From Candidatus Bathyarchaeia archaeon (GTDB taxonomy: Archaea; Thermoproteota; Bathyarchaeia; Bathyarchaeales; Bathycorpusculaceae), in assembly GCA_038883795.1 (NCBI GenBank), contig JAVZLK010000010.1, forward strand, positions 1-43,251: a stretch of DNA of 43,251 nucleotides. The letters are read 5' to 3'. The position numbers were made by a program, and so were the translations under genes. Below, piece by piece: positions 829-21,213 of the stretch (positions within the stretch are counted from its first letter, which is position 1; each line of letters opens with the position of its first letter). Below the pieces are notes generated by a model, which had not been told where the DNA came from, searched no databases, and worked only from the letters and a program-made list of their open reading frames with translations.

Positions 829-2049
829 TTATATCCCGAGGTAAATATCTGTTCTTTGTCCTAAGCGATCAACTACTTCATCATCTATTCGTTCTTTTTT
901 CATGGTGAGGCCTTCCTCGATAGAATAATGGCAAATTTTGAGGAAGTTCCTGATATTTGCCCTCTTCCGTTCCTCAAGTAGTCTAAACATTTTTACTAGG
1001 ATTTCTTTGCTAAATGGAAAAAGGGGGTCTTCAAATTTTTCGGTTCTATAACTATTGATGTAAGCTTCTACGTATGTACTCAAGTTTTCCTCACTTAATT
1101 CTTCTAAGAACACTCTTAATGAGATTCTTTCTAGAGGCTCATATTTTGCTATAAGCTCCAATGCTTCAGGGCTGCAACTTAGTATCAATGTTAATCCTGT
1201 GGGGTTCCAATCCATAATATGCCGTATAGAATCTAAAAAGTTAACCCTTTGCTCTGCAGGGAAAAGAGTTATTTTTTCGACCTCATCGATACATATAAAT
1301 AACATTCGGAAGCCAATGCTTTCAAGCAATTTTCTGAAATTTACGATAACAGCAAGTGCTTTTTCATCACTATCTAATCGACTAGTAATACCGCATTTTC
1401 GCAATGTGAAAAGGTCTATCCATTTTCCACAAATCCATTCATACCCGATTCTGAGCCCTTCCTCAGAGTAAAACATATTCATTAAGGCGGACACTAAATC
1501 TGAATCGCTTATTGTACTGAAGAGGAATTTTTGCAACGACTTTTGGGCGGCGATTTTATCATCGGCTTGCATTTCATTCAAGAACAAACTAGTCATTAAT
1601 GCGCGGATGGCAGAATAATTTTCTTTTTGAGTCTGTGATGTTAATTGTAGGATTTTTAATTTTAATTCTTCAAAAAATTCCATTCCAAGATCGTGCATAA
1701 AACCCTGATATATCGTCAGAAGAGACCAACCCCTAGCAGAGGTATATCCGGCCACTGCAATATTTTCAGGGTACAGTTGATCAAGAATACTAGTTCGGAT
1801 TACTTTTAAAGCATGACTTTTTCCGTTACCGTAGCCTCCAACAATAAGCAAATGGCTTGGTCTTCTGTCTTCGCTGTAAACAGAATTTGAGATAGATTCC
1901 AATATTTGCCTTTTTGCATTTTCTTGATCAGCAAAAATTCGCGGAGATTCCTCTGGGACAGGTGAAGCAGGGAAAGGATTACTTCTAAGTTTGTAAATAG
2001 CATACTCTTCGGCCTTTCGTCTTACAGTTATAGTAAAGTCAGCGCTCAA
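829..2049 (-). CDS. AAA+ P-loop ATPase, BrxD/DUF2791- or Orc/Cdc6-like (paralogue 1)
   Basis: N-terminal NPF, Walker A GGYGNGKSH, Walker B ICIDEVE, LFPFS and sensor-II-like NIRNFL; closely parallels 16625-17887. Confidence 0.85.
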   Translation of the reverse strand: MSADFTITVRRKAEEYAIYKLRSNPFPASPVPEESPRIFADQENAKRQILESISNSVYSEDRRPSHLLIVGGYGNGKSHALKVIRTSILDQLYPENIAVAGYTSARGWSLLTIYQGFMHDLGMEFFEELKLKILQLTSQTQKENYSAIRALMTSLFLNEMQADDKIAAQKSLQKFLFSTISDSDLVSALMNMFYSEEGLRIGYEWICGKWIDLFTLRKCGITSRLDSDEKALAVIVNFRKLLESIGFRMLFICIDEVEKITLFPAEQRVNFLDSIRHIMDWNPTGLTLILSCSPEALELIAKYEPLERISLRVFLEELSEENLSTYVEAYINSYRTEKFEDPLFPFSKEILVKMFRLLEERKRANIRNFLKICHYSIEEGLTMKKERIDDEVVDRLGQRTDIYLGI

Positions 2050-2930
2050 AGCTTATCCACTTCTAAATGTACATAGTAAAATGTGCTATTATTTAGTTTT
2101 AACCCATACAACGGAGATCGATTAACCTCAATTACGTCATTCTCTTGATATTCAATTTGTCTAATTTTGCGTGCACCCTCTAAAGAGATTGTTGTTTCAG
2201 GTGCACTAAATAAACGAACGCATTCAGGCTTCTCTTCATATAAATTGATAAGTATAGTATCGAATAAATTCCTAGGAATTCTGAGGAGTTCACATGAATA
2301 TTCCCTGAAGGATGCTATAGGCAGATAATACTTTTCACCTAAACCCTTTCCAGCTAATGCTTGATACATATTCTTTAGAAGCACATGCGCCCTTTCAGGG
2401 CTCTTTTGTTCGGCCAACAAATAAAGTCGCGATGGCTCTGACAATTTGTTTTCCATTATGCCTCCTAAACGTTCCCCCCAATCGACAAGAAAAGCGAGGA
2501 TTACCTTATTTTTGACGAATGTCTCTTTGACATATCCCTCTTCTAGAAGGCGCTTTTCAAAATTGGTAACATCGTTTATAGGAATACCTTTTTCGTTGCC
2601 AAATTCGTACCATTTAATGATTATATCTTTAAGCCTTCTGTAGGCGGGATGATGTTTCGTTAAATAATGATCAATACTGAGCCATTGCCTTTGCCTAATC
2701 CATTGGAGCACTTGTTGACCTCTGCTGGACAACTCGAAGGTGTTTCCACTTCTGCTTACCAACTCAATTTGGATTAACATGTCCAATATCTTTTTGGCCC
2801 TTGTTATGGTAAACCCTAGCCTATTCAACACGCTTTCATGAATAGGGCTCTTGCTTAAAAGTAGAACCATTTTTAGGAAAGGTTTTAGATTTATCGGTTC
2901 CATTTGTTCACCAAAAGAAGGCATTTTCAC
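2046..2930 (-). CDS. multi winged-helix protein, ATPase partner (paralogue of 17892-18752)
   Basis: N-terminal wHTH pattern (RAKKILDML..IELV...GNTFELSSRG); shares DWGERLG, REY.CE.L.I.R..FD and L..AP.T with 17892-18752; overlaps the ATPase start by 4 nt. Confidence 0.7.
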   Translation of the reverse strand: MKMPSFGEQMEPINLKPFLKMVLLLSKSPIHESVLNRLGFTITRAKKILDMLIQIELVSRSGNTFELSSRGQQVLQWIRQRQWLSIDHYLTKHHPAYRRLKDIIIKWYEFGNEKGIPINDVTNFEKRLLEEGYVKETFVKNKVILAFLVDWGERLGGIMENKLSEPSRLYLLAEQKSPERAHVLLKNMYQALAGKGLGEKYYLPIASFREYSCELLRIPRNLFDTILINLYEEKPECVRLFSAPETTISLEGARKIRQIEYQENDVIEVNRSPLYGLKLNNSTFYYVHLEVDKL

Positions 2931-4068
2931 GTACTTTTTTAATGTTGTCAGAAGGCGTATGAAGGTCTTCTTTCAAGCTCTCTATATTGCCTCTCCGTAA
3001 ATCCACTTGCACAAGTCCACGGATCCAATCATCTGCTTTTTTATTCGGGAAATCACCATAAATCCATATCTCCAAATTCTCCTTACTGTTAATTCTTACG
3101 CTTCCGTACTGAATCGCTAATTCGTACACAAGTGTTGACATTGGAGTATACACTTTTCCAAATAATAAGTCCCAACTAGGTACTTTAATGCGGCTTGGAA
3201 TTGTGAATAAGTCGCCTATAGAAAGGCAGTAGGATTTGATTCCTTCAAGCTGGGCAATAGCAAAACTCGTTTTGTCGCAAGTGATAAACCATGCGTCTGC
3301 CAGTGGAGAAAACGCTCGCGCGTATTCTCTTATTTGCAGTCTTATTAGAGCATCTGAGGAAAGCCTGCTACCCTCTTTGGAAGGTAGGATATAGGAAGCG
3401 GGCGTTGGTATGTCAAAAATATGACTAGAATATTTTCTAAGCGCGTTTATCTCTTGCAAACCTCTATATCCTTTACGTTTTCTGAGGGCGTCTTTCGAAT
3501 CTGAAGCCATGTTCTCTAATTCCCACAGACATAATCGAGGCAAAGCTACGAAAAACCTTTCTGCACCTAAGACAACAATCCTGTTCAATATGTGCTTAGA
3601 TAAAATTGCCCTCTGGATAACGCCCGAATCGGGTATAAGGGCAAGACGCGTCGAAGAGGGTTCAAAGACAAAATAATCAGCTTCCTGAGGTCGATATAAA
3701 CCAGAACAAATTAGAACATCTCTTAAGCCTTGTCTAAAAAGATTATCGAGGTGTTCCAAGAACTTTTTTCGTTTATCGACAAATTCAGCTTTGAAATAGT
3801 TCTTTAGATACTCCTTTTGTTCACCTTTATATCCATCAATCATTATACTTTCCTTTTCTTTTAAAATGGTTAAAAGATGATCATCTAGACATAGTGATAT
3901 CTCATATCTCCCCAAAGATGAACTGGAAATATTATTCAACTTCAAAACCTTGATAGGATCAACCTGAGTTCCATTCTTCACGAAAACATTTAGCTCTCCA
4001 CAACTTCTTAAAGTTTCACCCTCAAATAAATTAATTAACTGCATAAAATCTATATTTATTGGATCCAT
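2908..4068 (-). CDS. PIN-domain nuclease-like protein
   Basis: PIN acidic pattern: LIPDSG (D1), WELEN (E), SDALI (D), FITCDK (T-x-D); first gene of a PIN-wHTH-ATPase operon. Confidence 0.72.
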   Translation of the reverse strand: MDPINIDFMQLINLFEGETLRSCGELNVFVKNGTQVDPIKVLKLNNISSSSLGRYEISLCLDDHLLTILKEKESIMIDGYKGEQKEYLKNYFKAEFVDKRKKFLEHLDNLFRQGLRDVLICSGLYRPQEADYFVFEPSSTRLALIPDSGVIQRAILSKHILNRIVVLGAERFFVALPRLCLWELENMASDSKDALRKRKGYRGLQEINALRKYSSHIFDIPTPASYILPSKEGSRLSSDALIRLQIREYARAFSPLADAWFITCDKTSFAIAQLEGIKSYCLSIGDLFTIPSRIKVPSWDLLFGKVYTPMSTLVYELAIQYGSVRINSKENLEIWIYGDFPNKKADDWIRGLVQVDLRRGNIESLKEDLHTPSDNIKKVRENAFFW

Positions 4069-4089
4069 CTTCAGCGCCGTGGGATAAAA

Positions 4090-4632: not shown

Positions 4633-4706
4633 TCTGTGGCTTTTAATACGAAAGAACGCGATAAAGGAGATTCTTGCTCGATGTGAAGTTTTTGATTTTA
4701 AACAAA

Positions 4707-5870
4707 CTAGCGAGGCAGAAGGTTCAATTTGATGGCGTAATAGGTTGCTAAGAAAATAGAGGCGAGAGCATGTCTTGCTTCATCAATGGTTGGGGGTTCG
4801 AATCCCGTAAGGTCGCTCGGATGAGCGCCTTTTTTATCGCGAAGCCATTTGACTGAAGACAGTAGAGAAAGAACAAACTCCAGCGGTGTTGTTATTTGAC
4901 CTGGTACTTCAGTTTTCCAAAGTTTTGAAAGCTGATTACCCATTTGTGGTGTCCTTTTTGCATTTTCCTCTCCTTTTAAACATACGAATATCCCGGCGAC
5001 TAATATTTCAGCAGCACGGCCGCAGCTGCTAATTGTGTCATAACAGTTTCCACGCTGAAATTGTTCAAATGAATTCAATAAATGGTTAGTTAACTCTTCT
5101 TTGCCGCGTATTGCGTGAGTGGAGACCATACGGATTACCATATTTTTTAGTTTTTGAAAATCGTAAATTTCTTTAAAGTTTAAAAACGTCCTACTTATAT
5201 CTTCTTTTTCGCTTCTAAGTTTAGCTATCGCATCATTAATTTCCCTTAACATTACAGTGTATTGTTGAAAAACGAAGTCTATTGCGAAGTCCGGTAAACT
5301 TAGCAATTTTCCTTTTCGGCTAATCAGTCCAAATTCTTGCATATAATTTAGCTCGCGTGGAATGACCGTATATTTTGCCTCTGATATCGATGCGTAATCC
5401 TGAAAAGGTCCTATTCGATCTTCTGCATCCTTCTGCAATTCTTTCATGACTAATTCTAGTTCCACATTGTTACCAAGAATGAAAATCTTTCTGATAATAT
5501 ACTGCCATAAAGGTTCGACGTAATGTAGATCTCCTCCACCCCATTTCTGAAGTAGAATCCGGTTTATGTCCTCCTCTTCTTCGAAGAACAGTTTGCCTAT
5601 AACTGAGGAAAAGGTAAGAGTACACTTAAGATTTCCATTCTGAATTATTAAGCCAGCCTCTATTAGTGAATCTAGACTTTTTCCGATCCAAGCATAGGGT
5701 AAATCTGGGTAGTAGGATTTTGCAATGAATGATATAAGCTGATCGCGAGACATTTCACCTTTATCAAGAAGGACTTTCAAAATTGCCAATTTACTTTTAT
5801 CATTCGACCTAACAAAGTTTAAAATCATTGAATATATTTTTGATTTTGCAGTATCTTTATCATAAAACAT
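4707..5870 (-). CDS. multi-wHTH protein with C-terminal HEPN (DUF4145/Abi-C-like) domain
   Basis: Two wHTH-like segments (SLDSLIEAGLI; ELNYMQEFGLISRKG), a coiled linker, then GRAAE...RDKKGAH (Rx5H HEPN-type motif). Confidence 0.7.
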   Translation of the reverse strand: MFYDKDTAKSKIYSMILNFVRSNDKSKLAILKVLLDKGEMSRDQLISFIAKSYYPDLPYAWIGKSLDSLIEAGLIIQNGNLKCTLTFSSVIGKLFFEEEEDINRILLQKWGGGDLHYVEPLWQYIIRKIFILGNNVELELVMKELQKDAEDRIGPFQDYASISEAKYTVIPRELNYMQEFGLISRKGKLLSLPDFAIDFVFQQYTVMLREINDAIAKLRSEKEDISRTFLNFKEIYDFQKLKNMVIRMVSTHAIRGKEELTNHLLNSFEQFQRGNCYDTISSCGRAAEILVAGIFVCLKGEENAKRTPQMGNQLSKLWKTEVPGQITTPLEFVLSLLSSVKWLRDKKGAHPSDLTGFEPPTIDEARHALASIFLATYYAIKLNLLPR

Positions 5871-5880
5871 TTCTTTTAAC

Positions 5881-7071
5881 CTAATTTATGATGGCTGCTC
5901 CTGTTTTAATTTGTTTTCGTTGTATCGAAATCTTTTGTGAATGGATGGGTACTAAGTCAACTATGATGTCCCAGTGTTCTTTTGGAGAAGAAATTACATA
6001 CTGTGGTCGTCGCATTTTAGCTACGTTTTTCACTACCGAGTATAGCGCCACATCATTTCTTGTTCGATATTTCAACGTTTCCGCGGAAGCGAGCGCTAAA
6101 GATTTAAGATCAAAAATTTGTTCCTTAGGCAAAGCAAGGTAAGTATTCAGTGTTGCCAGCCCCCAATCTGGCTTATTAAGGAAAGAGTATCTTGGCTGAA
6201 TATCAAATAAGGCTAAGATCATGAGAATAAACCTGCGAATGTCATCGTCACGTACAAATGTGTAGAATTTGATCAGCCCACCTCTGCTTATTTTAGCCCT
6301 AGAATCCAGCACACCTTCGATAAATTGTTTAATAACATTTGTTGGAGATGTACGTATGCACAGAGGCATTTTTTGTGGATGTGTCCGTGAAAAGTCATGT
6401 GTGTCTTCTGGTTCAAACAATTGTGAAATCATTCTTGTTATAAATCCGTCGCTAGACTCATCGATTACAATGATTTTTTTGCGATCTGGTCTGTAAAAAA
6501 TTTTGTAGTCAAAATCATAGCGAAGCCCTATTTCTTGGAACGTCTGTTTTAGGTTGCTGCATATTTTTCTATAATTGACATCACTTTCCAAAAACATTAC
6601 AATTTTATGCATAACCCATTTTTGTACGACGGCCTGCGTGCCAAGCAAATAAGCAAAATTTTCTGTAACATTAATTTTCTTGGAGTCTATGCATATCTGT
6701 TGTAATGTATTAGAGCAATATAATTCTCTGAGCATGTCAAATGTTTTGGGTCTATAGAAAATATCTAATTGGTCTCCTTCAACGATTTTTGAAGCAATCT
6801 TTTTGCCGTCAATTAAATAAAGTTTTGTTCTTTCTGGAACTATAATCTCATTGACATCTGTTATAATTCTAATAGACTTATCCTCTGTTAACTTCAGTGG
6901 GCGGGAGGCTAATTGTTGAAATGAAGGTTCACGCTTTTCAATATCCAGCCCTAGGATATGGTCTGTCTCCTCCAATTCTTGAACTTTCAAAATTCCCCTT
7001 TTTGTCCATAAATAACTATCTTTGCACACAATGTATCCTATGACTTCTTGTTGTACCGTTTTTTCATTCAA
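5881..7071 (-). CDS. free-standing degenerate intein-like protein (Hint + DOD/LAGLIDADG)
   Basis: Intein blocks in order: A IVCKDSYLWTKRGILKVQEL, B IRIITDVNEIIV...ASKIVEGD, C FAYLLG, D/E MPLCIRTSPTNVIKQFIEGVLDS, H ILALFDI, F/G SVVKNV...VPIHSQ. Start reassigned to TTG 7071 because the ORF-track start overlaps the divergent gene. Confidence 0.75.
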   Translation of the reverse strand: MNEKTVQQEVIGYIVCKDSYLWTKRGILKVQELEETDHILGLDIEKREPSFQQLASRPLKLTEDKSIRIITDVNEIIVPERTKLYLIDGKKIASKIVEGDQLDIFYRPKTFDMLRELYCSNTLQQICIDSKKINVTENFAYLLGTQAVVQKWVMHKIVMFLESDVNYRKICSNLKQTFQEIGLRYDFDYKIFYRPDRKKIIVIDESSDGFITRMISQLFEPEDTHDFSRTHPQKMPLCIRTSPTNVIKQFIEGVLDSRAKISRGGLIKFYTFVRDDDIRRFILMILALFDIQPRYSFLNKPDWGLATLNTYLALPKEQIFDLKSLALASAETLKYRTRNDVALYSVVKNVAKMRRPQYVISSPKEHWDIIVDLVPIHSQKISIQRKQIKTGAAIIN

Positions 7072-7085
7072 GTGTACAACCAGAT

Positions 7086-7096
7086 TTTTTATAAGG
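7086..7096. promoter_or_regulatory. TATA-box-like element in the divergent intergenic region
   Basis: TTTTTATAAGG lies between divergent starts at 7071 and 7136. Confidence 0.45.
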
Positions 7097-7135
7097 AAAC
7101 TTCTAAATAATAATATTTCACTAAAGGGATCAGAG

Positions 7136-8272: not shown

Positions 8273-8277
8273 AATAA

Positions 8278-10784: not shown

Positions 10785-10793
10785 TTGCTTTAT

Positions 10794-11981: not shown

Positions 11982-11992
11982 CTATCTCACTC

Positions 11993-12454: not shown

Positions 12455-12592
12455 TCCTCAGCATGCTCTCAAAAACAATTTAATGAAATATAGAATATAT
12501 GTTTGTAGTTTGCTTTCATTAGTCTGGTTCGGCTTAACTTTTATTTATTTGGACAGAACAATGTTGCTTTAATAGTTACTATCCTTGAGCTG

Positions 12593-13843: not shown

Positions 13844-13859
13844 AATAGGTTGAAATATT

Positions 13860-14924
13860 ATGCGGATTACTGTTCAGCCAGTTGAAATACCCGAATTAAT
13901 TGAGGCAATGAAGATAATTATCAAATTCGTAGACCAAAATAGAAAACCTCTATCTGTAGAAGACCTTCAAAACGAGTTTTTAAAGGAAGGTTATAAAAAG
14001 GGAAAGCCAAAAGTAAGGAACATAATAGGGACTCTTGTCGAATGGAGACTTATCAATCGCATAGAACGTTCAAAGTATGAGCCCTCCTTTACATCCAAAA
14101 AGCTCTTCTCATTGCCAAACAAGAGACTAGAAATGGAAATTAAGAAGATTATTCTTAAAAACGAACCTAAATTTCTTGAAATGTTATATCTTCTAGAAGG
14201 TTCACGCTTAACGGTGGAAGAATTGTCTAACATGTTGGGAACAACTATTGTAACTACAAATGTTTTTCTTAGATGGGGATTATATTTCAAAGAAATTGAA
14301 AAAAAGGAAAACTTCTTCACTAAACGACTTACGAAAGATGACATTACATTACCTCATAAGCAACTTGCTCGTTGTGTGGCATCTGAATTAGCAAGAGTAG
14401 GATTCAACATTTCTTTTGAGCAAGGGAAACCACCGACAGATTTAATCGCTGAGAGCCAAGATAAGCAACGTAAGATCTATGTAGAATGTAAATCGTCAAT
14501 AAGTGAAGTTACCAAAGGAATTGGTCAGCTAGTTGTATCAGAACGCAAAAAGACCGATGAACTCTGGCTAGTTTTACCTACTTCTGTAATATCTGAGATA
14601 ACGTATAGCCGACTTTTTAAAATTCTAGAAGGCTTGAATAACATTAAAATGGATTTAGTATTGTACAATCTTGAGAAATTTCTAAACGGAGAAGCGGCGT
14701 TTCGGGAAAGAATAAGATTATTTGGAAGACGTTGGAAAGCGGACAAAGATTTTCTCCACAAACTAATTGAGGCTGATTTTAAGCATGATTTTGACGAAAA
14801 GATCGTAGCCGAATTTCTACAGATCAAGCAAAGAAGAGCGAAGAAAACATTAAATCGATTATTTTATCGAGGTTTATTGTCGAAGAGAAACGGAAAGTAT
14901 TCTTTTAGATGTAAAACTAAGTAA
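13860..14924 (+). CDS. putative restriction endonuclease (wHTH domains + PD-(D/E)xK)
   Basis: PTDLIA...YVECK...GIGQL nuclease motifs flanked by wHTH segments; directly downstream of the MTase. Confidence 0.72.
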   Translation: MRITVQPVEIPELIEAMKIIIKFVDQNRKPLSVEDLQNEFLKEGYKKGKPKVRNIIGTLVEWRLINRIERSKYEPSFTSKKLFSLPNKRLEMEIKKIILKNEPKFLEMLYLLEGSRLTVEELSNMLGTTIVTTNVFLRWGLYFKEIEKKENFFTKRLTKDDITLPHKQLARCVASELARVGFNISFEQGKPPTDLIAESQDKQRKIYVECKSSISEVTKGIGQLVVSERKKTDELWLVLPTSVISEITYSRLFKILEGLNNIKMDLVLYNLEKFLNGEAAFRERIRLFGRRWKADKDFLHKLIEADFKHDFDEKIVAEFLQIKQRRAKKTLNRLFYRGLLSKRNGKYSFRCKTK

Positions 14925-16599
14925 CTAATGTTGTTTGTTTGTATTTTTTATGCTGTACGTTTTTATTTGAAAACAGCTCATAGTAGGATTTAATTTCATT
15001 TAATATAGCCTCTCTAAAATTTTTCATTTGTCTATTATATTCTATTACATCTAGTTTTCCTCTACTCAATTCTACCTTAGGGAAAATCTCGATAGGAACA
15101 TCTAAAGATAATGAAGCCTTTTCAATTGCTTCACGATAAGGACCTAACCCTATGAAGAAAATCTTGTCATAGAAGCGTAGTTTATTCTTTAGGTCTCTTA
15201 TGACATTCAAAAGTTTTTCTGATGTTAAACGTTGTTCATAATAGGGTATTATTGTATCCCAACTTATTAGCATATATTTACCCGAAAGAATGCCAATTTC
15301 TATTGGAAGATCGTGTACATTTTCCCAGAATGTTTTGAAAAGGTTAGATTTTGCATATCGCATGTATGCAGGTAAGAGTCTTTCGCTGGGGTCTTTTTCA
15401 CCTGTGCACCAAGTTAATGCCAAAATCCTAGGATATTTCTTTTTTAGAATTCTGTGGAAATGGTATACGTTGTGAAAGCCTCTGCGCATGTTTCGTTCGC
15501 ATCCTCTAAAAATACACACATGTAATCCAATTTCTGTGCAGATTGGACAATCACACTTCTCCCAGGGTTTATCATTCAACGTCCTTAATACATCCTTCTC
15601 TCTAAAAGAGAAGCCTTGGGGGTCATAGTCTTTTAATATGGTGGCAAATTCCTCTGCTGTAACTCTTCCCTGAGTAAATTCTCTAAGCTTTTGAAAAACA
15701 ATTTTTTCCTGCAGTTTTTCTTTTTCATTTTTAGCTTCACGAATTCTGATTGCCGTATAAAAATGTTCATTCATCATGTAGTTCTTGGTACCAGAGGTCC
15801 AAGCCATTCTGAGTGGTGAAGCAGAATCAAATGATGTTACTCCACATTGTAACATTGTAGTGAAGAGGTCTTTTCTTGCCACTCCGAATAAATGAAGCCC
15901 TATTCTTGGCCAGTAGTGGATTTTCTCTTTTCTTTTCTTTAAATGTTCCTTTATTTCCTTATGAACTCTGAATAATACTTTTTGTATTGTAATTGTAGGT
16001 TTTTTAGCTAGCCCACCTAACCCAACATAATTAAATCCATGTTCTAATAATTCACGAATACCTCTAGCATAAGATTCCTCGTCCCATCCCTGTGTAATCC
16101 CAATAAGGCGTATGCCTTCGTATCTAGTTTTTTGTGCTTCATCATACATTTTCTTGGCATTTTCGATTGTTAGATTCCATCTCTCCTCCTTTTCTGCATC
16201 TGTCAAGGGCCGCCTTTCTTTATCCGATACTTTTACAGTCTTTACTATCAAATGGTCAACCGTAACTCCAATGTCAAATCCTAGGTCTTTGTAAAAAGAT
16301 AGGGTTTGGAGGGCCTCATAGCGCGGCTTCTGGTCGTCTACATAGCTAAACGCCCCACAATCGCCCATTATTTGCCCATAAAACCCCAATGCGGCATGAA
16401 TTCCTTCCTTTTCTGCTTTCTGTCTTATATGATTTGTCCGCTCGATGTTTATCCTAGAAACTAGAACGCCGTCGATTGGAGGTTTACTAAAGCACTCCCA
16501 TATTCTTTTCTGTGTTCCGCTATACTTGTCAGTCCATGGATTGAATGTTTCATAGATGTCGTCACCTGGCCAAAATGGGATAAAATACTGCATAGTCAT
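14917..16599 (-). CDS. dpdA: DNA 7-deazaguanine transglycosylase DpdA fused to a C-terminal DUF6884/YaaA-like domain
   Basis: DpdA signatures: PIDGVLVSR, GDCGAFSY, VDHLI, TQGWD, GLGGL, LHLFG, SFDSASPLR, PWEKCDCPIC, IFRGCERNMRRGFHN. C-terminal domain has WCTGEK...PAYMRY...ILSGKYMLI...IIPYYEQRL. Confidence 0.88.
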   Translation of the reverse strand: MTMQYFIPFWPGDDIYETFNPWTDKYSGTQKRIWECFSKPPIDGVLVSRINIERTNHIRQKAEKEGIHAALGFYGQIMGDCGAFSYVDDQKPRYEALQTLSFYKDLGFDIGVTVDHLIVKTVKVSDKERRPLTDAEKEERWNLTIENAKKMYDEAQKTRYEGIRLIGITQGWDEESYARGIRELLEHGFNYVGLGGLAKKPTITIQKVLFRVHKEIKEHLKKRKEKIHYWPRIGLHLFGVARKDLFTTMLQCGVTSFDSASPLRMAWTSGTKNYMMNEHFYTAIRIREAKNEKEKLQEKIVFQKLREFTQGRVTAEEFATILKDYDPQGFSFREKDVLRTLNDKPWEKCDCPICTEIGLHVCIFRGCERNMRRGFHNVYHFHRILKKKYPRILALTWCTGEKDPSERLLPAYMRYAKSNLFKTFWENVHDLPIEIGILSGKYMLISWDTIIPYYEQRLTSEKLLNVIRDLKNKLRFYDKIFFIGLGPYREAIEKASLSLDVPIEIFPKVELSRGKLDVIEYNRQMKNFREAILNEIKSYYELFSNKNVQHKKYKQTTLVT

Positions 16600-16624
16600 C
16601 AGCTAGGTTTTCATTCTTACTTTC

Positions 16625-17887
16625 CTAGAATACATCTGTTAGTGATTTCTTTAAAACATCTTCGTTAATTAATGAGTTGCGCATCATCGAACATGTATCG
16701 ATGGCAATGTTACATAGGCTTAGCGTTCTCCGTATATTTCCTTGGGATATTTGCAGAATCATCTTGAGTGCGCCATCAGTAAATGGGTAAAGGCAAGGAT
16801 CCTCTATGCATATTTTCTCTTTTTCTAATTTTCGCATAAGCTTTTCTTCACTAATGCTCCTGGAGTTTCGCAGGTATTCTTTTACGAATTGGTTTATGTT
16901 TTGCTCATTTAGAGGCCTTAATGTGATTTCCTTGAATATCCTCTCCGAAAAAGCATGGTACTCTCTAATTATGTTTGCCCATGTTTCTGGTGTGCATGCT
17001 ATTATAAGGGATAAACCCTTAGGATTGAGATCTATGAGGTGTCGGATACTATTTAGTAGAGCTTGCCTTTTTGGTGGAATTAGCATATCAATAGACTCAA
17101 ATTCGTCGAGAAGTAAACATACTAAATCGTAACCTAGTATTTTTAATATCTTTCGCAAACACATGAAAAGCTGTAGAGCTCTATCGTCTGTGTCAATTGG
17201 TGTGACTATACCAAGGTCACGCCTTTGTTCCGAATAGGTAGGGTCTCCACTAAGCCATCTCCAAGCTAAAAGTCCCGTTTCTTCCATTGTTAATTGCAGA
17301 AACGCTGTAAGAAAGTCCTGCCATTTTACTATGGGCAAGAATTCATCTTTGGATTCTTTGATTAATGTTGATAAAATTACAGTGCCATCGTCTACTAATC
17401 TCTTTATGCTTAACAAGTCTTTATTGAGACTCTCAGCTACTTTTTTTGGCTCTTCAGTGAATTGCATTTTTTTCCTTTCAATAAGTTTTGAAGCTGTGTA
17501 TCCTAAAACCTGCCATGAAAGATTATGAAAGAAGTCATAACCTACATCATACATAAAACCTCGGTAGATATCGCGGAATGATGTACCCGAACAGCTGACG
17601 TATCCGACTAATATTTTCTCTGACTCCTTTTCAAGCAATTTTCCTATCTCTTTTTTTATATACTTTAGCAAGTGTGTCTTACCGTTTCCATAACCAGCAA
17701 CTATCGACAAATGCGTTGAAAAGCCGCGAAGGGATGAAACCAAAGAGCGATAAACGATGTCTACTTCCTCTTCTCGATTAATACAAAATGGGGGATCGTC
17801 CTCTGGAACACCAACGCTCGGGAAGGGATTTTTCGTCAAGAAATAAAACCGGTGATCTTTTTCACCCTCTAAAGTTAGTTTACTCAT
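16625..17887 (-). CDS. AAA+ P-loop ATPase, BrxD/Orc-like (paralogue 4)
   Basis: NPFP, Walker A AGYGNGKTH, AWRWLSG, Walker B LLDEFE, LYPFT, GNIRRTL. Confidence 0.86.
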   Translation of the reverse strand: MSKLTLEGEKDHRFYFLTKNPFPSVGVPEDDPPFCINREEEVDIVYRSLVSSLRGFSTHLSIVAGYGNGKTHLLKYIKKEIGKLLEKESEKILVGYVSCSGTSFRDIYRGFMYDVGYDFFHNLSWQVLGYTASKLIERKKMQFTEEPKKVAESLNKDLLSIKRLVDDGTVILSTLIKESKDEFLPIVKWQDFLTAFLQLTMEETGLLAWRWLSGDPTYSEQRRDLGIVTPIDTDDRALQLFMCLRKILKILGYDLVCLLLDEFESIDMLIPPKRQALLNSIRHLIDLNPKGLSLIIACTPETWANIIREYHAFSERIFKEITLRPLNEQNINQFVKEYLRNSRSISEEKLMRKLEKEKICIEDPCLYPFTDGALKMILQISQGNIRRTLSLCNIAIDTCSMMRNSLINEDVLKKSLTDVF

Positions 17888-17891
17888 TGTA

Positions 17892-18752
17892 TTATCCCTT
17901 CAATGGCTCAAAAATAGCGACATAGCGATACTCTTTACCGTCTATTTCGATGCCTTTACTCTCCTTCAAGCATACAAACTGAGGCGATAGAATGGAATCT
18001 TTCAGTCCCTTTTTCACTTTCTTCAGAGAGAAAGGGTTTTTCTTGGTAACGCTAGTTATTGGTGCTCCGCACAACTCCATTTTTCCATATGACTTTTTAA
18101 AAGTGCTGACGAATAGAAAATCAAAAGTTTCCCTTTTTATTTTCAGCTTCTCACATACGTATTCCCTCAATTTTGCGATTTCTACATATTTTTGTTTAAG
18201 ACCAGGTCTTGGTTTGATATTTAGTTCCTCGTAAGTTGCTTGAAGAAACGAAATAAAATCTGTAAAGCCATTAACATTGTTCGCCAAATAATATTTGTTG
18301 GTGTAAAGGTTACGTTGAACCACACCTAATCGTTCCGCCCAATCGCATAGAACGTCAACAGCAGTCACATTGAAATTCAGTAGAGGATCATTAGCAAGAA
18401 TTTTTAATAAATCACTTTTTGTGAAACTACTGAAAAGCACATTTCTTCCAAAAGCTTCCATAAAGGTTTTGTAGAATGAATAATTGCTAAACAGTAGAGT
18501 ATGCATTTTTTCCCAATTTTCATGCTCAAAAGCCTCTATAAAATCGTATGCGTTTTTGTTTGGAATGAATTTGCCATTATTATATTCTAAGAATTTTATT
18601 CGTTCAGCTTCTAATAGAATTTCTTGCGCTCTTTTTTGTGTAGTTTTTAACTTAGCTGCCAACTTAGAAGAGTCAAGGTATCCTTCTTTAATGCTTAAGT
18701 CAATAGTTTCTATAATCCTTCTTAAAGTTACAGGCCTTATGGAAATTTTCAT
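17892..18752 (-). CDS. multi winged-helix protein, ATPase partner (paralogue of 2046-2930)
   Basis: HTH LAAKLKTTQKRAQEIL; DWAERLG, LREYVCEKLKIKRETFD, LCGAPIT. Confidence 0.72.
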   Translation of the reverse strand: MKISIRPVTLRRIIETIDLSIKEGYLDSSKLAAKLKTTQKRAQEILLEAERIKFLEYNNGKFIPNKNAYDFIEAFEHENWEKMHTLLFSNYSFYKTFMEAFGRNVLFSSFTKSDLLKILANDPLLNFNVTAVDVLCDWAERLGVVQRNLYTNKYYLANNVNGFTDFISFLQATYEELNIKPRPGLKQKYVEIAKLREYVCEKLKIKRETFDFLFVSTFKKSYGKMELCGAPITSVTKKNPFSLKKVKKGLKDSILSPQFVCLKESKGIEIDGKEYRYVAIFEPLKG

Positions 18753-18763
18753 GTTCTTTCCTC

Positions 18764-19834
18764 CTAAAAGATTCGTTTAACTTTACGCTTTGCATATTCA
18801 AAAGCCTTTAAGGCTATCGAGTTTCGTGTGTAACGTTCTTTAATGTAGCTTTCAAGCCGTCGTTCAGCAATAGCAAATTGAATCTGCTTTAACTCGTGCC
18901 ATAAAACCCAAAGGTTATGAAGAGAGATTAAAGACCTGTTCTTTCTAATTTCCTCTATAGTTTTCGAACTACAAATTGTACACGCGCAGGGGAGTGCATC
19001 GAGCTTAGCTATGTATTTCATTGACACATAAGTATAGTTTGGGACAAAGTATTGTCGTTTTCCGCCACAAATTATGAAAGAAGTAGAGTCAAAAGAATCT
19101 GCTCCTAAATATATTAGTAGAGGTGTTGATAGAATTCCCCCCAGTCCATAAACATGTAAGGGTTTTTCAGGCACTGCTTGCCGAGCAGAAAAAATTAAGT
19201 CAACAAGAAGTCGAAGATTGCTGCGGATAGGTATCATGCTTCCCACAGCAAAGCCATCAAAAATTGAGTATTTTGCTAAATGTTTCAAAACATTACTAAT
19301 TATCATCGGGTCATTTCCATGAACAGAAGCGTATAACAGCATTTCTTTCCGTTTTTTAAGTCTCGCAGCTTCCTTTGCGCTTTCAATGCTTCTAGCAATG
19401 CTATTCACGATGTTTCCTGCAGTATTCTTAATTACAAATGGGAAATCAAAAGTCGAGGCGATGTCAGCTCCACAAATTTCTTGTATTCGCAATATTTCCT
19501 CGGTTTTCACTGACACATGCTTTCTAAGAGTAAGAAACCCCCCACTATCAACGAAAGCTACACCAGGAAAACCAAGAAAATTATGTATACCGCCAGCAAA
19601 ACTGATTTTTTCCTTTATTTTCCTATAATTATGAAAAATATAGTATGCATTAAACATCGCAGTTTTTATGTTTGGAAAGAGTTCCCAATATTTAGGCGTA
19701 TTCCACCCTCCTTGCGCTCCAAGATTATGTACTGGAAAAATTATTGGTGTCTTTAAACATCCGTGAGGTGTTTTTAGTTCTCCTATTCTAGCTAACTGAT
19801 CTTGTTGGGCTATTCGAAACAATTTATTTTTCAC
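18764..19834 (-). CDS. tRNA-guanine transglycosylase family protein (ArcTGT-like catalytic domain only, no PUA)
   Basis: ARIGELKTPHG..KTP, DSGGF, FDFP, VHG, FAVGSMIP, LHVYG, GADSFDS, zinc site PCACTIC...LHN; 356 aa. Confidence 0.9.
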   Translation of the reverse strand: MKNKLFRIAQQDQLARIGELKTPHGCLKTPIIFPVHNLGAQGGWNTPKYWELFPNIKTAMFNAYYIFHNYRKIKEKISFAGGIHNFLGFPGVAFVDSGGFLTLRKHVSVKTEEILRIQEICGADIASTFDFPFVIKNTAGNIVNSIARSIESAKEAARLKKRKEMLLYASVHGNDPMIISNVLKHLAKYSIFDGFAVGSMIPIRSNLRLLVDLIFSARQAVPEKPLHVYGLGGILSTPLLIYLGADSFDSTSFIICGGKRQYFVPNYTYVSMKYIAKLDALPCACTICSSKTIEEIRKNRSLISLHNLWVLWHELKQIQFAIAERRLESYIKERYTRNSIALKAFEYAKRKVKRIF

Positions 19835-19872
19835 ACCTTTTTAATCTCACAATGTTGGTGAGCGCTTATATG

Positions 19873-21204: not shown

Positions 21205-21213
21205 GCATACAAG

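What the first reader, a model, noticed from the sequence alone, without database searches (positions are those of the whole stretch)
829..19834. Candidate new archaeal 7-deazaguanine defence system: two transglycosylases, four BrxD/Orc-like AAA+ ATPases and nuclease effectors
Seen: dpdA and a second intact TGT co-occur with four paralogous AAA+ ATPases, wHTH proteins, PIN, PLD, HerA, HEPN and a degenerate intein, in tightly coupled operons. Established: bacterial Dpd systems modify DNA with DpdA + DpdB (DndB-like) + DpdC and restrict with DpdD-K, which include helicases. None of dpdB or dpdD-J is recognisable here. Inference: a distinct architecture in which a BREX/Orc-like ATPase-wHTH platform delivers the base-exchange enzyme to self DNA, while sister platforms carry nucleases against unmodified DNA.
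Basis: partly seen in the sequence, partly recalled or inferred. Interest (0 to 1): 0.9.

Follow-up and report, generated by a model that had tools for sequence, protein, structure and literature searches.

The report
Archaeal Dpd-like deazaguanine defence island
A mobile island in a hot-spring archaeon carries a conserved but untested relative of the bacterial Dpd system, which probably marks the cell's own DNA with a 7-deazaguanine base and pairs that mark with DNA-cutting machines.

Summary
The observation largely holds. The window has a true DpdA (NCBIfam 276 bits, cut-off 200). It also has a second, catalytically intact ArcTGT-like enzyme without tRNA-binding domains, four paralogous ORC/BrxD-like ATPases, HerA and a PLD nuclease, in tight operons. 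PIN is only a lead; HEPN and the "intein" matched no profile.

DpdA is fused to DUF6884, a distant relative of the DpdC family. The module DpdA::DUF6884 + TGT2 + ATPase + tandem winged-helix protein recurs in 13 of 85 DpdA loci examined, including a diverged second copy in this genome (contig C27). The PLD-ATPase-HerA operon lies beside dpdA in 8 of the 85. In two other archaeal genomes the same module sits next to DpdJ- and DpdK-like genes.

The system reaches beyond the given end, to about 24486: a regulator, a likely deazaguanine-precursor transporter, and a UvrD/PD-(D/E)XK pair. The PIN cassette was found only here, and the methyltransferase pair looks like a separate type II R-M.

Verdict: a new variant of Dpd restriction-modification, on a 41-kb element integrated at tRNA-Arg. 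My six literature searches found no description; the BRC systems (NAR 2026) are the nearest precedent. Earlier notes of this scan report kindred DpdA/DUF6884 cassettes in other genomes. The chemistry is untested.

The parts
481..505 (.). 25-nt direct repeat: a copy of the end of tRNA-Arg and the putative left attachment site of the integrated element
   Evidence: family D4: 481-505 against 41928-41952, 96% identical. The second copy lies inside tRNA-Arg(TCG) at 41926-42004(-).
829..2049 (-). ATPase A': an ORC/BrxD-like AAA+ ATPase, paralogue of 16625-17887
   Evidence: 30% identity, E 3.8e-55 to ATPase A. Pfam BrxC_BrxD 4e-9. Walker A and Walker B (DE) present.
2046..2930 (-). wHTH': paralogue of the winged-helix protein 17892-18752
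   Evidence: 28% identity over 130 aa, E 6.5e-11. Weak HTH_45 and wHTH-PRTase_assc hits. Overlaps the ATPase gene by 4 nt.
2908..4068 (-). 386-aa 'cargo' of the duplicated cassette: a possible PIN_4-like nuclease, seen only in this window
   Evidence: Atlas score 0.96 to archaeal clusters in which 25-49% of members carry PIN_4. PDB 3ix7 E 0.03. No Pfam hit. A singleton among the 85 loci.
4707..5870 (-). 387-aa protein with an N-terminal HTH-like region; HEPN not confirmed
   Evidence: PADLOC HTH_IX 4.3e-4. No Pfam hit. RDKKGAH at residues 344-350. One homologue, in L016.
5881..7188 (-). 435-aa protein of unknown fold; recurs in 5 of 85 DpdA loci
   Evidence: Family X435 in WIN, L016, L022, L031 and L053. 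No intein or other profile match.
7022..8272 (+). ATPase C: an ORC-like ATPase with a DD Walker B; the likely true start is at about 7136
   Evidence: Paralogy E 1e-6 to 9e-8. LDD in place of LDE. Present with the HerA operon in L016, L017, L018, L022 and L059.
8278..9390 (-). 370-aa helical protein, last gene of the PLD-ATPase-HerA operon; function unknown
   Evidence: Family in 6 of 85 loci, always next to HerA. Model pLDDT 79.4; no Foldseek match below E 0.4.
9387..10784 (-). HerA/FtsK-type translocase ATPase
   Evidence: Pfam HerA_C 6.3e-7 and DUF87 1.8e-6. PADLOC mad8 6.9e-22, HerA 1e-15. This subtype was found in 1 of 401 genomes of the phylum, the window's own, with both copies beside dpdA.
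10794..11981 (-). ATPase B: an ORC/BrxD-like AAA+ ATPase of the HerA operon
   Evidence: BrxC_BrxD 4.1e-5. 24% identity, E 1.1e-14 to ATPase A. The C27 paralogue hits BrxC_BrxD at 6.7e-14.
11993..12454 (-). Single-HKD PLD-family nuclease; weak likeness to DpdK
   Evidence: PLDc_2 1.2e-4. PADLOC MkoC 1.6e-5, DpdK 1.9e-3. The C27 paralogue scores 34.5 bits. In 8 of 44 fusion-type loci and 0 of 41 others.
12593..13843 (+). Type II N6/N4 DNA methyltransferase; probably a separate R-M unit
   Evidence: PADLOC MTase_II 1.8e-42. Pfam N6_N4_Mtase 4.1e-15. Next to dpdA only in WIN and L016-L018.
13860..14924 (+). 354-aa protein with HTH-like ends and a D...ECK string; candidate restriction partner of the methyltransferase (inference)
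   Evidence: 16 nt after the methyltransferase gene; 'IYVECKS' read in the translation. Only weak profile hits. Absent from L016-L018.
14917..16599 (-). DpdA DNA-guanine transglycosylase fused to a C-terminal DUF6884 (YaaA/DpdC-like) domain
   Evidence: for DpdA. DUF6884 at 7e-4 and 1.1e-4; the C27 paralogue scores 68.6-71.9 bits. CxxxK (C398, K402) and LSAxxG (S439, K441) are invariant in 15 sequences.
16625..17887 (-). ATPase A: an ORC/BrxD-like AAA+ ATPase of the dpdA operon, the proposed stand-in for DpdB
   Evidence: BrxC_BrxD 2e-11. PADLOC BrxD 1.9e-9. NCBIfam BrxD 35.6 bits against a cut-off of 350, and ORC1-type 2.7e-4. Next to dpdA in 13 triad loci.
17892..18752 (-). Tandem winged-helix protein, partner of ATPase A
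   Evidence: Model pLDDT 82.7, pTM 0.77. Best Foldseek matches are tandem-WH proteins: RPC62 1.5e-3, SelB C-terminal part 2.9e-3, FokI 1.6e-2. Family in 14 of 85 loci.
18764..19834 (-). TGT2: an ArcTGT-like transglycosylase without PUA domain, catalytic and zinc residues intact
   Evidence: The genome has a separate 543-aa ArcTGT on C3. The 15 best library representatives are all 380 aa or shorter.
20207..20866 (-). 219-aa membrane protein like an ECF S component; proposed importer of the 7-deazaguanine precursor
   Evidence: Atlas 0.96 'ECF transporter S component family'. Pfam ECF-ribofla_trS 4.5e-3. It occupies the place that QueT or Vut_1 transporters hold behind the same small regulator in other dpdA loci.
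20863..21204 (-). 113-aa ribbon-helix-helix (DUF6364) plus zinc-ribbon protein; likely regulator
   Evidence: DUF6364 9.8e-6; the C27 copy 1.9e-9 and 38.3 bits. In 15 of 44 fusion-type loci against 1 of 41 others.
21248..22174 (-). PD-(D/E)XK nuclease
   Evidence: PDDEXK_1 4.2e-13. Homologues sit beside dpdA in 20 of 85 loci.
22150..24486 (-). UvrD-family helicase, overlapping the nuclease gene by 25 nt
   Evidence: UvrD-helicase 3.4e-44. The UvrD + PD-(D/E)XK pair is in 16 of 85 dpdA loci, up to 763 bits.
41926..42004 (-). tRNA-Arg(TCG) holding the right copy of the 25-nt repeat, next to an integrase-like gene at 40587-41867
   Evidence: Phage_integrase 1e-4, below the cut-off.

Best explanation
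The window holds an archaeal variant of the Dpd (7-deazaguanine) restriction-modification system. It is carried on a ~41-kb element integrated at tRNA-Arg.

Modification arm (14917-21204, inferred steps). The cell has no recognisable QueC, so the precursor base preQ0 is probably salvaged through the ECF-S-like membrane protein, under the small RHH/zinc-ribbon regulator. DpdA exchanges guanine in DNA for the deazaguanine. The ATP-dependent helper, which in bacteria is the ParB-like DpdB, is replaced here by an ORC/BrxD-like AAA+ ATPase with a tandem winged-helix DNA-binding partner. The DUF6884 domain fused to DpdA, a distant relative of DpdC, then converts the inserted nitrile base (to dADG or another derivative). 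TGT2, a second intact ArcTGT-like enzyme without tRNA-binding domains, belongs to this unit. Most likely it is a second DNA base-exchange subunit, for another sequence context, strand or base.

Restriction arm (inferred). The first part is the PLD nuclease + ORC-like ATPase B + HerA translocase + 370-aa protein, with the Walker-B-variant ATPase C. The second is the UvrD + PD-(D/E)XK pair. Both would attack DNA that lacks the mark.

What is shown: gene identities, intact catalytic residues, purifying selection, and recurrent linkage. What is inferred: the chemistry, the division into modification and restriction arms, and the role of TGT2.
For: IDENTITY. DpdA scores 275.9 bits against a cut-off of 200, 2.7e-73 in PADLOC and 7.5e-43 to PDB 7ui4. 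Its catalytic Asp and zinc columns are invariant. The DUF6884 motifs CxxxK and LSAxxG are invariant. Pfam's authors state that the family is distantly related to YaaA/PF03883 (PMC11701544, passages), and a standalone DUF6884 from locus L080 also hits PF03883 at 6e-5. The TGT2 catalytic and zinc residues are invariant in 17 sequences.

LINKAGE, in 85 dpdA loci:
- Fusion-type dpdA is in 44 of them.
- TGT2 is in 23 of the 44 against 4 of the other 41.
- The ORC-like ATPase is in 15 of 44 against 3 of 41.
- PLD is in 8 of 44 against 0 of 41.
- The regulator is in 15 of 44 against 1 of 41.
- The ATPase + wHTH pair is with dpdA in 13 loci.
- HerA + PLD + ATPase is with dpdA in 8 loci.
- Both modules are together in 5 loci (window, C27, L016-L018). 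The other three of the eight contigs start at or inside dpdA.

OTHER LINKAGE EVIDENCE. A second copy on contig C27 of the same genome has nine shared genes at 29-75% identity in a different order. This HerA subtype was found in 1 of 401 genomes of the phylum, and both of its copies lie beside dpdA. In G380, dpdA::DUF6884 + wHTH + ATPase + a short TGT lies beside a DpdJ-like helicase (196.6 bits) and a DpdK-like PLD (33.8 bits). G115 has homologues of the same neighbours by clustering.

SUPPLY. No QueC was found in this genome, which is 87% complete. QueC was found in 7 of 26 genomes of the family. Behind the same regulator, other loci carry QueT (8e-19) or Vut_1 (2.1e-34) transporters.

SELECTION. 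Against the near-identical record L005, dN/dS is 0.07-0.17 for all five genes compared.

PRECEDENT. DpdB's ATPase activity is necessary for preQ0 insertion, and DpdC acts independently on preQ0-DNA (PMC10164549, abstract and passages). An ORC-clade ATPase SspC with the triple-wHTH protein SspB serves a DNA-modification system (PMC10853773, passages).
Against: - No chemistry was measured; no modified base is shown.
- The modules are separable. Of the 13 loci with the ATPase + wHTH pair, 8 lack the PLD-ATPase-HerA operon in the DNA held. The closest relatives L016-L018 lack UvrD/PD-(D/E)XK upstream of the regulator.
- Many loci are short contigs, and all were chosen by DpdA, so the linkage counts are one-sided lower bounds. 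Related loci are not independent.
- The DUF6884 domain of the window's own copy is below Pfam's cut-off (20-23 bits against 30).
- The ATPases match BrxD and ORC models far below the family cut-offs (35.6 against 350).
- The PLD match to DpdK is weak (E 0.0019).
- The transporter role rests on positional equivalence and a language-model look-alike only.
- The role of TGT2 is open.
- The whole region is a mobile defence island that also holds AbiJ-like and TIR proteins, so hitch-hiking of unrelated systems is plausible.
Confidence: 0.6

Rival explanations
1. This is a defence island of independent systems. The dpdA/TGT2/ATPase/wHTH module would be a self-contained DNA-modification unit, perhaps protecting the mobile element's own DNA from host restriction. 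The PLD-ATPase-HerA operon would be a separate HerA/ORC 'capture' system. UvrD/PD-(D/E)XK, the PIN cassette and the methyltransferase pair would be further unrelated systems that travel together only because islands accrete.
For: The region lies on an integrated element with an integrase-like gene, two serine recombinases, a TFB, and AbiJ-like and TIR proteins. HerA + ORC/Cdc6 ATPase + nuclease + wHTH neighbourhoods are described as stand-alone systems without any TGT (PMC10853773, passages). Eight of the 13 ATPase + wHTH loci lack the PLD-HerA operon. Gene order between the modules differs among the window, C27 and L017/L018. The PIN cassette is unique to the window.
Against: PLD, the 370-aa protein and this HerA subtype were seen only with fusion-type dpdA: 8 of 44, 6 of 44 and 8 of 44 loci, against 0 of 41 for PLD and the 370-aa protein. 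The linkage persists from 35% to 68% DpdA identity and through rearrangement. HerA of this type was in 1 of 401 genomes of the phylum, both copies beside dpdA. The same modification module is linked to DpdJ/DpdK-like restriction genes elsewhere. Only 6 viral contigs matched, none with the fusion.
Confidence: 0.25
2. One or both transglycosylases do not act on DNA. TGT2 would modify a tRNA or other RNA, or would attach a deazaguanine to a protein as a regulatory switch, as reported for a TGT-like enzyme acting on a SMODS cyclase. The ATPase/wHTH pair would then be a sensor-effector unit in which TGT2, like the PIN protein of the paralogous cassette, is the effector.
For: TGT2 is closer to ArcTGT than to DpdA: TgtA model 190 bits against DpdA model 26 bits. 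In a FastTree of 132 sequences rooted on the genome's own ArcTGT, its clade branches nearest the root (no support values shown). The paralogous cassette carries a nuclease-like cargo in the same position. Covalent modification of a SMODS enzyme by a deazaguanine transferase is cited in preprint 10.64898/2026.10.19.760177 (passages).
Against: TGT2 lacks every C-terminal tRNA-binding domain of ArcTGT (356 against 582 aa). The genome keeps a full 543-aa ArcTGT elsewhere. TGT2-family genes sit directly beside dpdA in many loci that have no ATPase or wHTH gene, for example L006, L034, L044, L051 and L090. PADLOC's 'TGT' model scores only 16 bits.
Confidence: 0.1

Closest known systems
Dpd restriction-modification system of bacteria (dpdA-K; Salmonella Montevideo; PMC10164549 read in passages; Thiaville 2016 recalled, not read)
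   Same: A bona fide DpdA above the curated cut-off. A YaaA/DpdC-related domain for a second chemical step. An ATPase encoded next to DpdA. A PLD-family nuclease with a weak DpdK match. Island-borne. In related archaeal loci (G380), real DpdJ- and DpdK-like genes lie next to the same modification module.
   Different: There is no ParB/DndB-like DpdB; an ORC/BrxD-like AAA+ ATPase plus a tandem-wHTH protein stand in its place. The DpdC-like domain belongs to DUF6884 rather than DUF328, and it is fused to DpdA. A second intact TGT is present. No DpdD-J is present. The putative restriction genes are HerA, ORC-like ATPases, a PLD and UvrD/PD-(D/E)XK. The host is an archaeon.
BREX-Related Capture (BRC) systems (computational proposal, PMC12839542, NAR 2026; passages read, supplements closed)
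   Same: They combine a TGT homologue with a HerA/FtsK translocase and ORC/Cdc6-like AAA+ ATPases, without DpdB or DpdC. They are found in some archaea. They were proposed to mark self DNA with a 7-deazaguanine.
   Different: BRC is defined around PglZ, the large BrxC-like DUF6079, a STAND NTPase, DUF4007 and often a GNAT. None of these was found here. Here DpdA is fused to DUF6884, there are two TGTs, the ATPases are about 400 aa, and the nuclease is a PLD.
HerA/FtsK + Orc/CDC6 ATPase 'capture' neighbourhoods related to DndFGH (PMC10853773; passages read)
   Same: The operon 8278-12454 joins a HerA/FtsK ATPase, an ORC-clade ATPase and a nuclease. A second ORC-like ATPase has an altered Walker B, a pairing that the paper also mentions for related neighbourhoods.
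   Different: The nuclease here is PLD-family, not a restriction-endonuclease fold. Whether an inactive REase insert lies in the ATPase was not examined. The paper's text has no occurrence of TGT or deazaguanine, whereas here the operon is linked to dpdA.
SspABCD phosphorothioation: SspC (ORC-clade AAA+) with SspB (triple wHTH) (as described in PMC10853773, passages)
   Same: A works-like analogy. In place of a ParB- or ABC-type partner, an ORC-clade ATPase plus a multi-wHTH protein is thought to scan DNA and bring a modification enzyme to its sites.
   Different: The chemistry differs (sulfur in the backbone against base exchange). No sequence relation was tested here. FokI-type triple-wHTH likeness of the wHTH protein is only Foldseek E 1.6e-2.
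Archaeosine tRNA-guanine transglycosylase ArcTGT (PDB 1iq8)
   Same: TGT2 shares the catalytic TIM-barrel domain, the three Asp and the zinc site.
   Different: TGT2 has 356 aa and lacks the C-terminal domains including PUA. It scores below the TgtA equivalog cut-off (190 against 350) and lies in a dpdA operon. The housekeeping ArcTGT is elsewhere in the genome.

Membership tests
Dpd system (canonical dpdA-K) | DpdA, a DNA-guanine transglycosylase | tested here: met
   NF041059 275.9 bits against a cut-off of 200. PADLOC DpdA 2.7e-73. PDB 7ui4 7.5e-43.
Dpd system (canonical dpdA-K) | DpdB, a ParB/DndB-like ATPase required for insertion | tested here: not met
   No PADLOC DpdB hit in 21 ORFs. 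PF14072 DndB has 0 matches in the genome, which is 87% complete.
Dpd system (canonical dpdA-K) | DpdC, a DUF328/YaaA-family protein that converts dPreQ0 to dADG | tested here: inconclusive
   PF03883 has 0 matches in the genome. DpdA carries DUF6884, stated to be distantly related to YaaA (PMC11701544), with its motifs invariant. A standalone DUF6884 of L080 hits PF03883 at 6e-5.
Dpd system (canonical dpdA-K) | Restriction genes DpdD-K | tested here: not met
   PADLOC gave no DpdD-J hit, only DpdK at E 1.9e-3 for the PLD. DpdJ (196.6 bits) and DpdK (33.8 bits) relatives do occur beside the same module in G380.
Dpd system (canonical dpdA-K) | dPreQ0/dADG present in genomic DNA | not testable with these tools
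   Needs mass spectrometry of DNA.
BRC (BREX-Related Capture) system | PglZ effector | tested here: not met
   PF08665 has 0 matches in the genome. No PglZ hit in the Pfam scans of window ORFs.
BRC (BREX-Related Capture) system | Large BrxC-like DUF6079, STAND NTPase, DUF4007, GNAT | tested here: not met
   None among the Pfam hits at E <= 0.01. The ATPases are 395-420 aa, with partial BrxC_BrxD matches only.
BRC (BREX-Related Capture) system | HerA/FtsK translocase and a TGT homologue | tested here: met
HerA/FtsK-Orc/CDC6 capture neighbourhoods (PMC10853773) | HerA/FtsK plus an Orc/CDC6-clade ATPase in one operon | tested here: met
   9387-10784 and 10794-11981 are 9 nt apart. ORC-clade assignment rests on weak matches (BrxC_BrxD 4.1e-5; the C27 copy 6.7e-14).
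HerA/FtsK-Orc/CDC6 capture neighbourhoods (PMC10853773) | An active restriction-endonuclease-fold nuclease and an inactive REase inserted in the ATPase | tested here: not met
   The operon's nuclease is PLD-family. No REase domain was hit in ATPase B. The insert itself was not examined by structure.
BREX BrxD | Equivalog-level match to BrxD, and a BREX context (PglX, PglZ, BrxC) | tested here: not met
   NF033438 scores 35.6 and 20.5 bits against a cut-off of 350. No BREX partner genes were found.
ArcTGT (tRNA G15 transglycosylase) | Catalytic domain with the Asp triad and zinc site | tested here: met
   for TGT2. The residue roles are recalled from the ArcTGT literature, not from a call.
ArcTGT (tRNA G15 transglycosylase) | C-terminal tRNA-binding domains including PUA; equivalog score | tested here: not met
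   356 aa; TIGR00432 scores 190 against a cut-off of 350, matching model positions 1-342 of 441. 1iq8 has 582 aa.

The most novel reading that the evidence does not exclude
The TGT2 - tandem-wHTH - ORC-like ATPase triad would be a programmable DNA base-exchange machine of its own, distinct from DpdA/DpdB. The island would then write two different 7-deazaguanine marks, or mark two sequence contexts or strands, using two transglycosylases. The wHTH/TGT2 pair would be a specificity cassette that recombination swaps. In support, against a near-identical relative dS jumps from 0.02-0.05 in dpdA and the ATPase to 0.5-0.8 in wHTH and TGT2. The paralogous PIN-wHTH-ATPase cassette would use the same scanning chassis to deliver a nuclease.
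Probability: 0.17. Interest if true: 0.85.

Novelty: new variant of a known kind. Interest (0 to 1): 0.68.

Why it matters
DNA 7-deazaguanine systems have been worked out only in bacteria and phages. There DpdA needs the ParB-like ATPase DpdB, for reasons still unclear.

A conserved archaeal form offers a natural experiment on what the ATPase does. It replaces DpdB with an ORC-like ATPase plus a winged-helix protein, fuses a DpdC-like domain to DpdA, and adds a second transglycosylase. It would also test whether archaeal chromosomes carry deazaguanine marks at all.

It also links base-exchange marking to HerA/ORC 'capture' machinery and to UvrD/PD-(D/E)XK pairs. That would widen the known kinds of restriction partners. 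If the sequence specificity lies in a swappable wHTH/TGT unit, it could be of use as a site-directed base-exchange tool.

Tried and rejected
Contexts were taken instead from the search for related loci and the genome search.
- The genome-contig scan gave only 2 loci.
- The viral-contig scan gave 6 loci, all matching DpdA residues 1-387 only. They were not analysed further.
- Complex prediction of DpdA(1-392) with TGT2 returned 'no answer' (score 0.00). This is no evidence either way.
- No RNA holder was listed for 14917-19834. Contigs of four runs were laid on 8000-25000. They show only that the locus and variants of it occur in hot-spring metagenome assemblies. One run labelled metatranscriptomic is marked 'probably DNA', so nothing can be said on expression.

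PROTEINS LEFT UNEXPLAINED.
- The 370-aa protein has no Foldseek match below E 0.4.
- The 435-aa protein: the 'intein' reading found no support.
- The 387-aa protein: HEPN is not supported by any profile.

SEARCHES THAT LED NOWHERE.
- The search for further cargo-wHTH-ATPase cassettes, with ATPase A' in 401 genomes, found only the window's own genome and four weak hits (34-36 bits) in one genus.

READINGS REJECTED.
- TGT2 as the housekeeping ArcTGT: a 543-aa ArcTGT is on C3.
- Decaying pseudogenes: dN/dS is 0.07-0.17.
- Membership in BRC: no PglZ.

LITERATURE. I ran six paper runs. The five that used DpdA or DUF6884 as terms (DpdA+archaea+7-deazaguanine; DUF6884; DpdA+HerA; DpdA+AAA+; DpdA+UvrD) found no description of this architecture. 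One search, on HerA capture systems, located PMC10853773, whose text has no TGT or deazaguanine. Supplements were closed. Supplementary Data S1 of PMC12839542 and of PMC10853773 list loci that I could not see and that might include relatives. Thiaville 2016 and Yuan 2018 were not read (recalled or cited in passages). Cui 2023 was seen only in the search listing.

ROWS DROPPED. L005, near-identical to the window, was left out of the 85-locus count. L013 and L015 were merged into L012 and L014. The viral loci L103-L108 were not included.

Full report
WHAT IS IN THE WINDOW. The window is a whole contig (C10) of an archaeal metagenome-assembled genome of 2.18 Mb in 81 contigs, 87% complete. A TFIIB-family gene at 26568-27476 marks it as archaeal. 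A near-identical public record is titled Candidatus Bathyarchaeia (L005).

ORF listing and family scans give a co-directional array on the minus strand from 24486 down to 14917:
- UvrD helicase (22150-24486)
- PD-(D/E)XK nuclease (21248-22174)
- a 113-aa RHH/zinc-ribbon protein (20863-21204)
- a 219-aa membrane protein (20207-20866)
- a 372-nt gap
- TGT2 (18764-19834)
- a 286-aa protein (17892-18752)
- ATPase A (16625-17887)
- DpdA (14917-16599)

A type II methyltransferase (12593-13843) and a 354-aa ORF converge on dpdA. Next comes the minus-strand operon of PLD (11993-12454), ATPase B (10794-11981), HerA (9387-10784) and a 370-aa protein (8278-9390). ATPase C follows on the plus strand (7022-8272; likely start 7136). 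Then come 435-aa and 387-aa proteins, a 180-aa ORF, and a second cassette of a 386-aa protein, wHTH' and ATPase A' (4068 down to 829). Gaps inside the operons run from -23 to +25 nt.

CHECK OF THE OBSERVATION.
- DpdA is secure: NCBIfam 275.9 bits against a cut-off of 200, PADLOC 2.7e-73, and the Salmonella DpdA structure 7ui4 at 7.5e-43.
- TGT2 aligns over its whole length with the catalytic domain of P. horikoshii ArcTGT (1e-35).
- In 17 TGT2-family sequences the columns D96, D130, D249, C283, C285, C288 and H306 are invariant. That these are the catalytic and zinc residues is recalled from the ArcTGT literature.
- TGT2 has 356 aa and no C-terminal domains.
- The genome has a separate 543-aa ArcTGT on contig C3.
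- In a library of 1.84 billion representatives only 53 proteins reach E <= 1e-30. The 15 best are all 380 aa or shorter, and full-length ArcTGTs follow after them.
- The four ATPases are true paralogues, with Walker A in all and a DD Walker B in ATPase C.
- The two 286/294-aa proteins are paralogues too (E 6.5e-11).
- PIN is a lead only.
- HEPN and the 'intein' found no support.

THE DpdC QUESTION. The C-terminal 170 residues of DpdA match Pfam DUF6884 weakly in the window copy (7e-4; 1.1e-4). They match clearly in the paralogue on C27 (68.6-71.9 bits). The Pfam 2024 paper says that DUF6884 has conserved CxxxK and LSAxxG motifs and is distantly related to YaaA/PF03883 (PMC11701544, passages). 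Both motifs are invariant in my alignment of 15 fusion proteins. PF03883/DUF328 is the family of DpdC (PMC12839542 and PMC5699537, passages). A standalone DUF6884 protein from locus L080 hits PF03883 itself at 6e-5. So DpdC is not simply absent; a distant relative is fused to DpdA. The fusion is common: a word-indexed search listed many 535-590-aa homologues, some named by their sources as from Nitrososphaerota, Bathyarchaeia, Odinarchaeota and Aenigmarchaeota.

IS THE GENE SET MORE THAN CHANCE? First, the same genome holds a second, diverged copy on contig C27. It has HerA (34% identity), PLD (31%) and ATPase B (29%) on one strand. It has DpdA::DUF6884 (35%) on the other, and then ATPase A (40%), TGT2 (50%) and wHTH (39%). 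The membrane protein (75%) and the regulator (62%) follow. That is nine shared genes in a different order.

Second, a metagenome scan with the DpdA alignment found 541 relatives among 599 pattern matches, of which the best 80 loci were kept. I clustered the ORFs of these 80 loci with those of five more: the window, C27, L006, G380 and G115. The results over the 85 loci are:
- 44 have the DpdA::DUF6884 fusion.
- TGT2-family genes are in 23 of the 44 against 4 of the other 41.
- ORC-like ATPases are in 15 of 44 against 3 of 41.
- The wHTH family is in 11 against 3.
- PLD is in 8 against 0.
- The 370-aa protein is in 6 against 0.
- The regulator is in 15 against 1.
- The membrane protein is in 8 against 0.
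- The ATPase + wHTH pair occurs with dpdA in 13 loci.
- HerA + PLD + ATPase occurs with dpdA in 8 loci.

Both modules occur together in the window, C27, L016, L017 and L018. In the other three HerA-bearing contigs (L020, L022, L059) the contig begins at or inside dpdA, so the other side is not on record. L016 reproduces the window's order over 14 genes. L017 and L018 have the same modification genes, with a far more diverged and inverted HerA operon.

Third, in 401 genomes sampled from the phylum, DpdA of this kind was found in 3. This HerA subtype was found in 1, the window's own genome, with both copies beside dpdA.

These counts are one-sided, because the loci were chosen by DpdA. Many contigs are short, and related loci are not independent.

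LINK TO CANONICAL Dpd. Two other genomes of the phylum, from different families, are G380 and the single-contig G115. In both, dpdA::DUF6884 lies beside a wHTH protein, an ORC-like ATPase and a short TGT. In G380 it is divergent from a five-gene operon. That operon holds a DpdJ-like helicase (PADLOC 196.6 bits) and a DpdK-like PLD (33.8 bits; Pfam PLDc_2 2e-11). G115 has homologues of these neighbours by clustering. So the ATPase/wHTH/TGT module is used together with recognisable Dpd restriction genes. This places the window's system within the Dpd kind and makes the PLD a plausible DpdK counterpart.

THE SYSTEM REACHES BEYOND 19834. The regulator (DUF6364 RHH plus zinc ribbon) is followed in the window and seven other loci by the 219-aa membrane protein. 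In five loci it is followed by a QueT transporter (Pfam 8e-19). In four it is followed by a DUF5591 protein and a Vut_1 transporter (2.1e-34). That Vut_1 is the family of YhhQ is recalled. PMC6884629 calls YhhQ the specific preQ0 transporter (passage).

The membrane protein resembles ECF S components (Atlas 0.96; Pfam 4.5e-3). The genome shows no real QueC, only partial PP-loop matches, and QueC was found in 7 of 26 genomes of the family. Salvage of the precursor base through this protein is therefore a reasonable inference.

Close homologues of the window's UvrD/PD-(D/E)XK pair lie beside dpdA in 16 of the 85 loci. Nine of those also have a standalone DUF6884 gene, in the order DUF6884-UvrD-PD-(D/E)XK-DpdA. 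The window thus combines two kinds of putative restriction partner.

WHAT THE wHTH AND 370-aa PROTEINS LOOK LIKE. The wHTH model is confident (pLDDT 82.7, pTM 0.77). Its best Foldseek matches are proteins made of tandem winged helices (RPC62, the SelB C-terminal part, UFL1/DDRGK1, FokI). None is at E <= 0.001 and the TM-scores are low. I read this as a multi-wHTH DNA-binding protein, not as membership of any family. The 370-aa protein is helical with a possible C-terminal winged helix and has no significant match.

SELECTION AND MOSAICISM. Against L005, dS is 0.018 in dpdA, 0.050 in ATPase A, 0.49 in wHTH, 0.78 in TGT2 and 2.1 in the membrane gene. dN/dS is 0.07-0.17 throughout. All five genes are under purifying selection. 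A recombination boundary lies between the ATPase and wHTH genes.

MECHANISM PROPOSED. The steps are given under Best explanation. Published work establishes the following:
- DpdA exchanges guanine for preQ0.
- DpdC acts separately on preQ0-DNA (PMC10164549, abstract and passages).
- An ORC-clade ATPase with a triple-wHTH partner serves the Ssp modification system.
- HerA + ORC-like ATPase + nuclease neighbourhoods are proposed capture systems (PMC10853773, passages).

For this locus everything else is inferred: the substitution of DpdB, the chemistry of DUF6884, the role of TGT2 and the restriction roles.

COMPARISON AND NOVELTY. The locus fails the membership tests for canonical Dpd: no DpdB, no DUF328 and no DpdD-J. 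It also fails those for BRC: no PglZ, DUF6079, DUF4007 or GNAT. It works like both in outline. Six literature searches found no description of a DpdA::DUF6884 fusion, of DpdA with an ORC-like ATPase and wHTH protein, or of DpdA with UvrD/PD-(D/E)XK. Supplements were closed.

Earlier notes of this scan describe kindred cassettes in other genomes. They include NurA-HerA with DpdA and DUF6884, a helicase + HKD nuclease with a DpdA-DUF6884 fusion, and a giant ORC-like ATPase with a TGT. These are unchecked leads. They fit the picture of one modification core joined to many restriction partners.

I rate the finding a new variant of a known kind, of good but not top interest. The chemistry is untested, the nearest precedent (BRC) is already in print, and part of the 19-kb region is not conserved with the rest.

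CONTEXT. A 25-nt direct repeat lies at 481-505 and at 41928-41952. The second copy is inside tRNA-Arg(TCG), next to an integrase-like gene. This suggests that about 41 kb, holding everything described, is an integrated element. G+C is 0.34-0.40 up to about 36 kb and 0.43-0.46 after.

Noticed in passing
window 481-505 and 41928-41952; tRNA-Arg 41926-42004(-); 40587-41867(-): A 25-nt direct repeat (96% identical) has one copy inside tRNA-Arg(TCG), next to an integrase-like gene. About 41 kb of the contig looks like an element integrated at this tRNA.
   Followed up: partly
L011 (contig C27 of the same genome) 1514-14917: A second, diverged copy of the system. Here an AGOG-like HhH DNA glycosylase (7786-8754; Pfam AGOG 2e-6) lies directly downstream of dpdA. 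A homologue follows dpdA in L070 too.
   Followed up: partly
L018 8212-9915; also L021, L030-L032, L035; window 26568-27476: Proteins of 540-660 aa with a C-terminal TFIIB repeat (2.8e-14) sit inside dpdA/ATPase operons in six loci. Ordinary-length TFB genes like the window's lie at the ends of L017 and L018. A basal transcription factor fold thus recurs with these systems.
   Followed up: no
L056, L061, L063, L065, L073, L078, L080, L082, L088: A compact cassette of standalone DUF6884 - UvrD - PD-(D/E)XK - DpdA recurs in nine metagenome loci. A search for DpdA+UvrD found one paper, on a phage genome, judged unrelated from its listing only.
   Followed up: partly
window 16625-19834 against L005: Synonymous divergence jumps about tenfold between the ATPase gene and the wHTH/TGT2 genes, while dN/dS stays near 0.15. 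This is a recombination joint inside the operon.
   Followed up: yes
window 12593-14924: A type II N6/N4 methyltransferase is followed after 16 nt by a 354-aa ORF with a D...ECK string and HTH-like ends. This is a candidate ordinary type II R-M pair wedged between the two arms.
   Followed up: no
window 30686-31504 and 33742-34623: Further defence-type genes on the same element: an AbiJ N-terminal domain 5 protein (4.9e-13) and a CAP12/Pycsar-type TIR protein (4e-33).
   Followed up: no
window 25673-26647 and 27509-29065: Two serine recombinases flank the TFB gene, which may be a nested sub-element.
   Followed up: no
whole genome G000 and 25 genomes of its family: QueC was not found in this genome. 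It was found in only 7 of 26 genomes of the family, although ArcTGT is present here. Many of these archaea may depend on salvaged preQ0.
   Followed up: partly
window 36414-40505: A 1363-aa protein with CARDB, caspase-like (Peptidase_C14/C13) and PKD domains lies in a stretch of higher G+C (0.43-0.45) inside the putative element.
   Followed up: no
L023, L025, L026, L027, L041, L052, L054, L058, L064: JAB/MPN-domain (5.9e-14) and MazG-like (4.6e-14) small proteins, and a second unfused DpdA paralogue, recur next to fusion-type dpdA in another group of loci.
   Followed up: no
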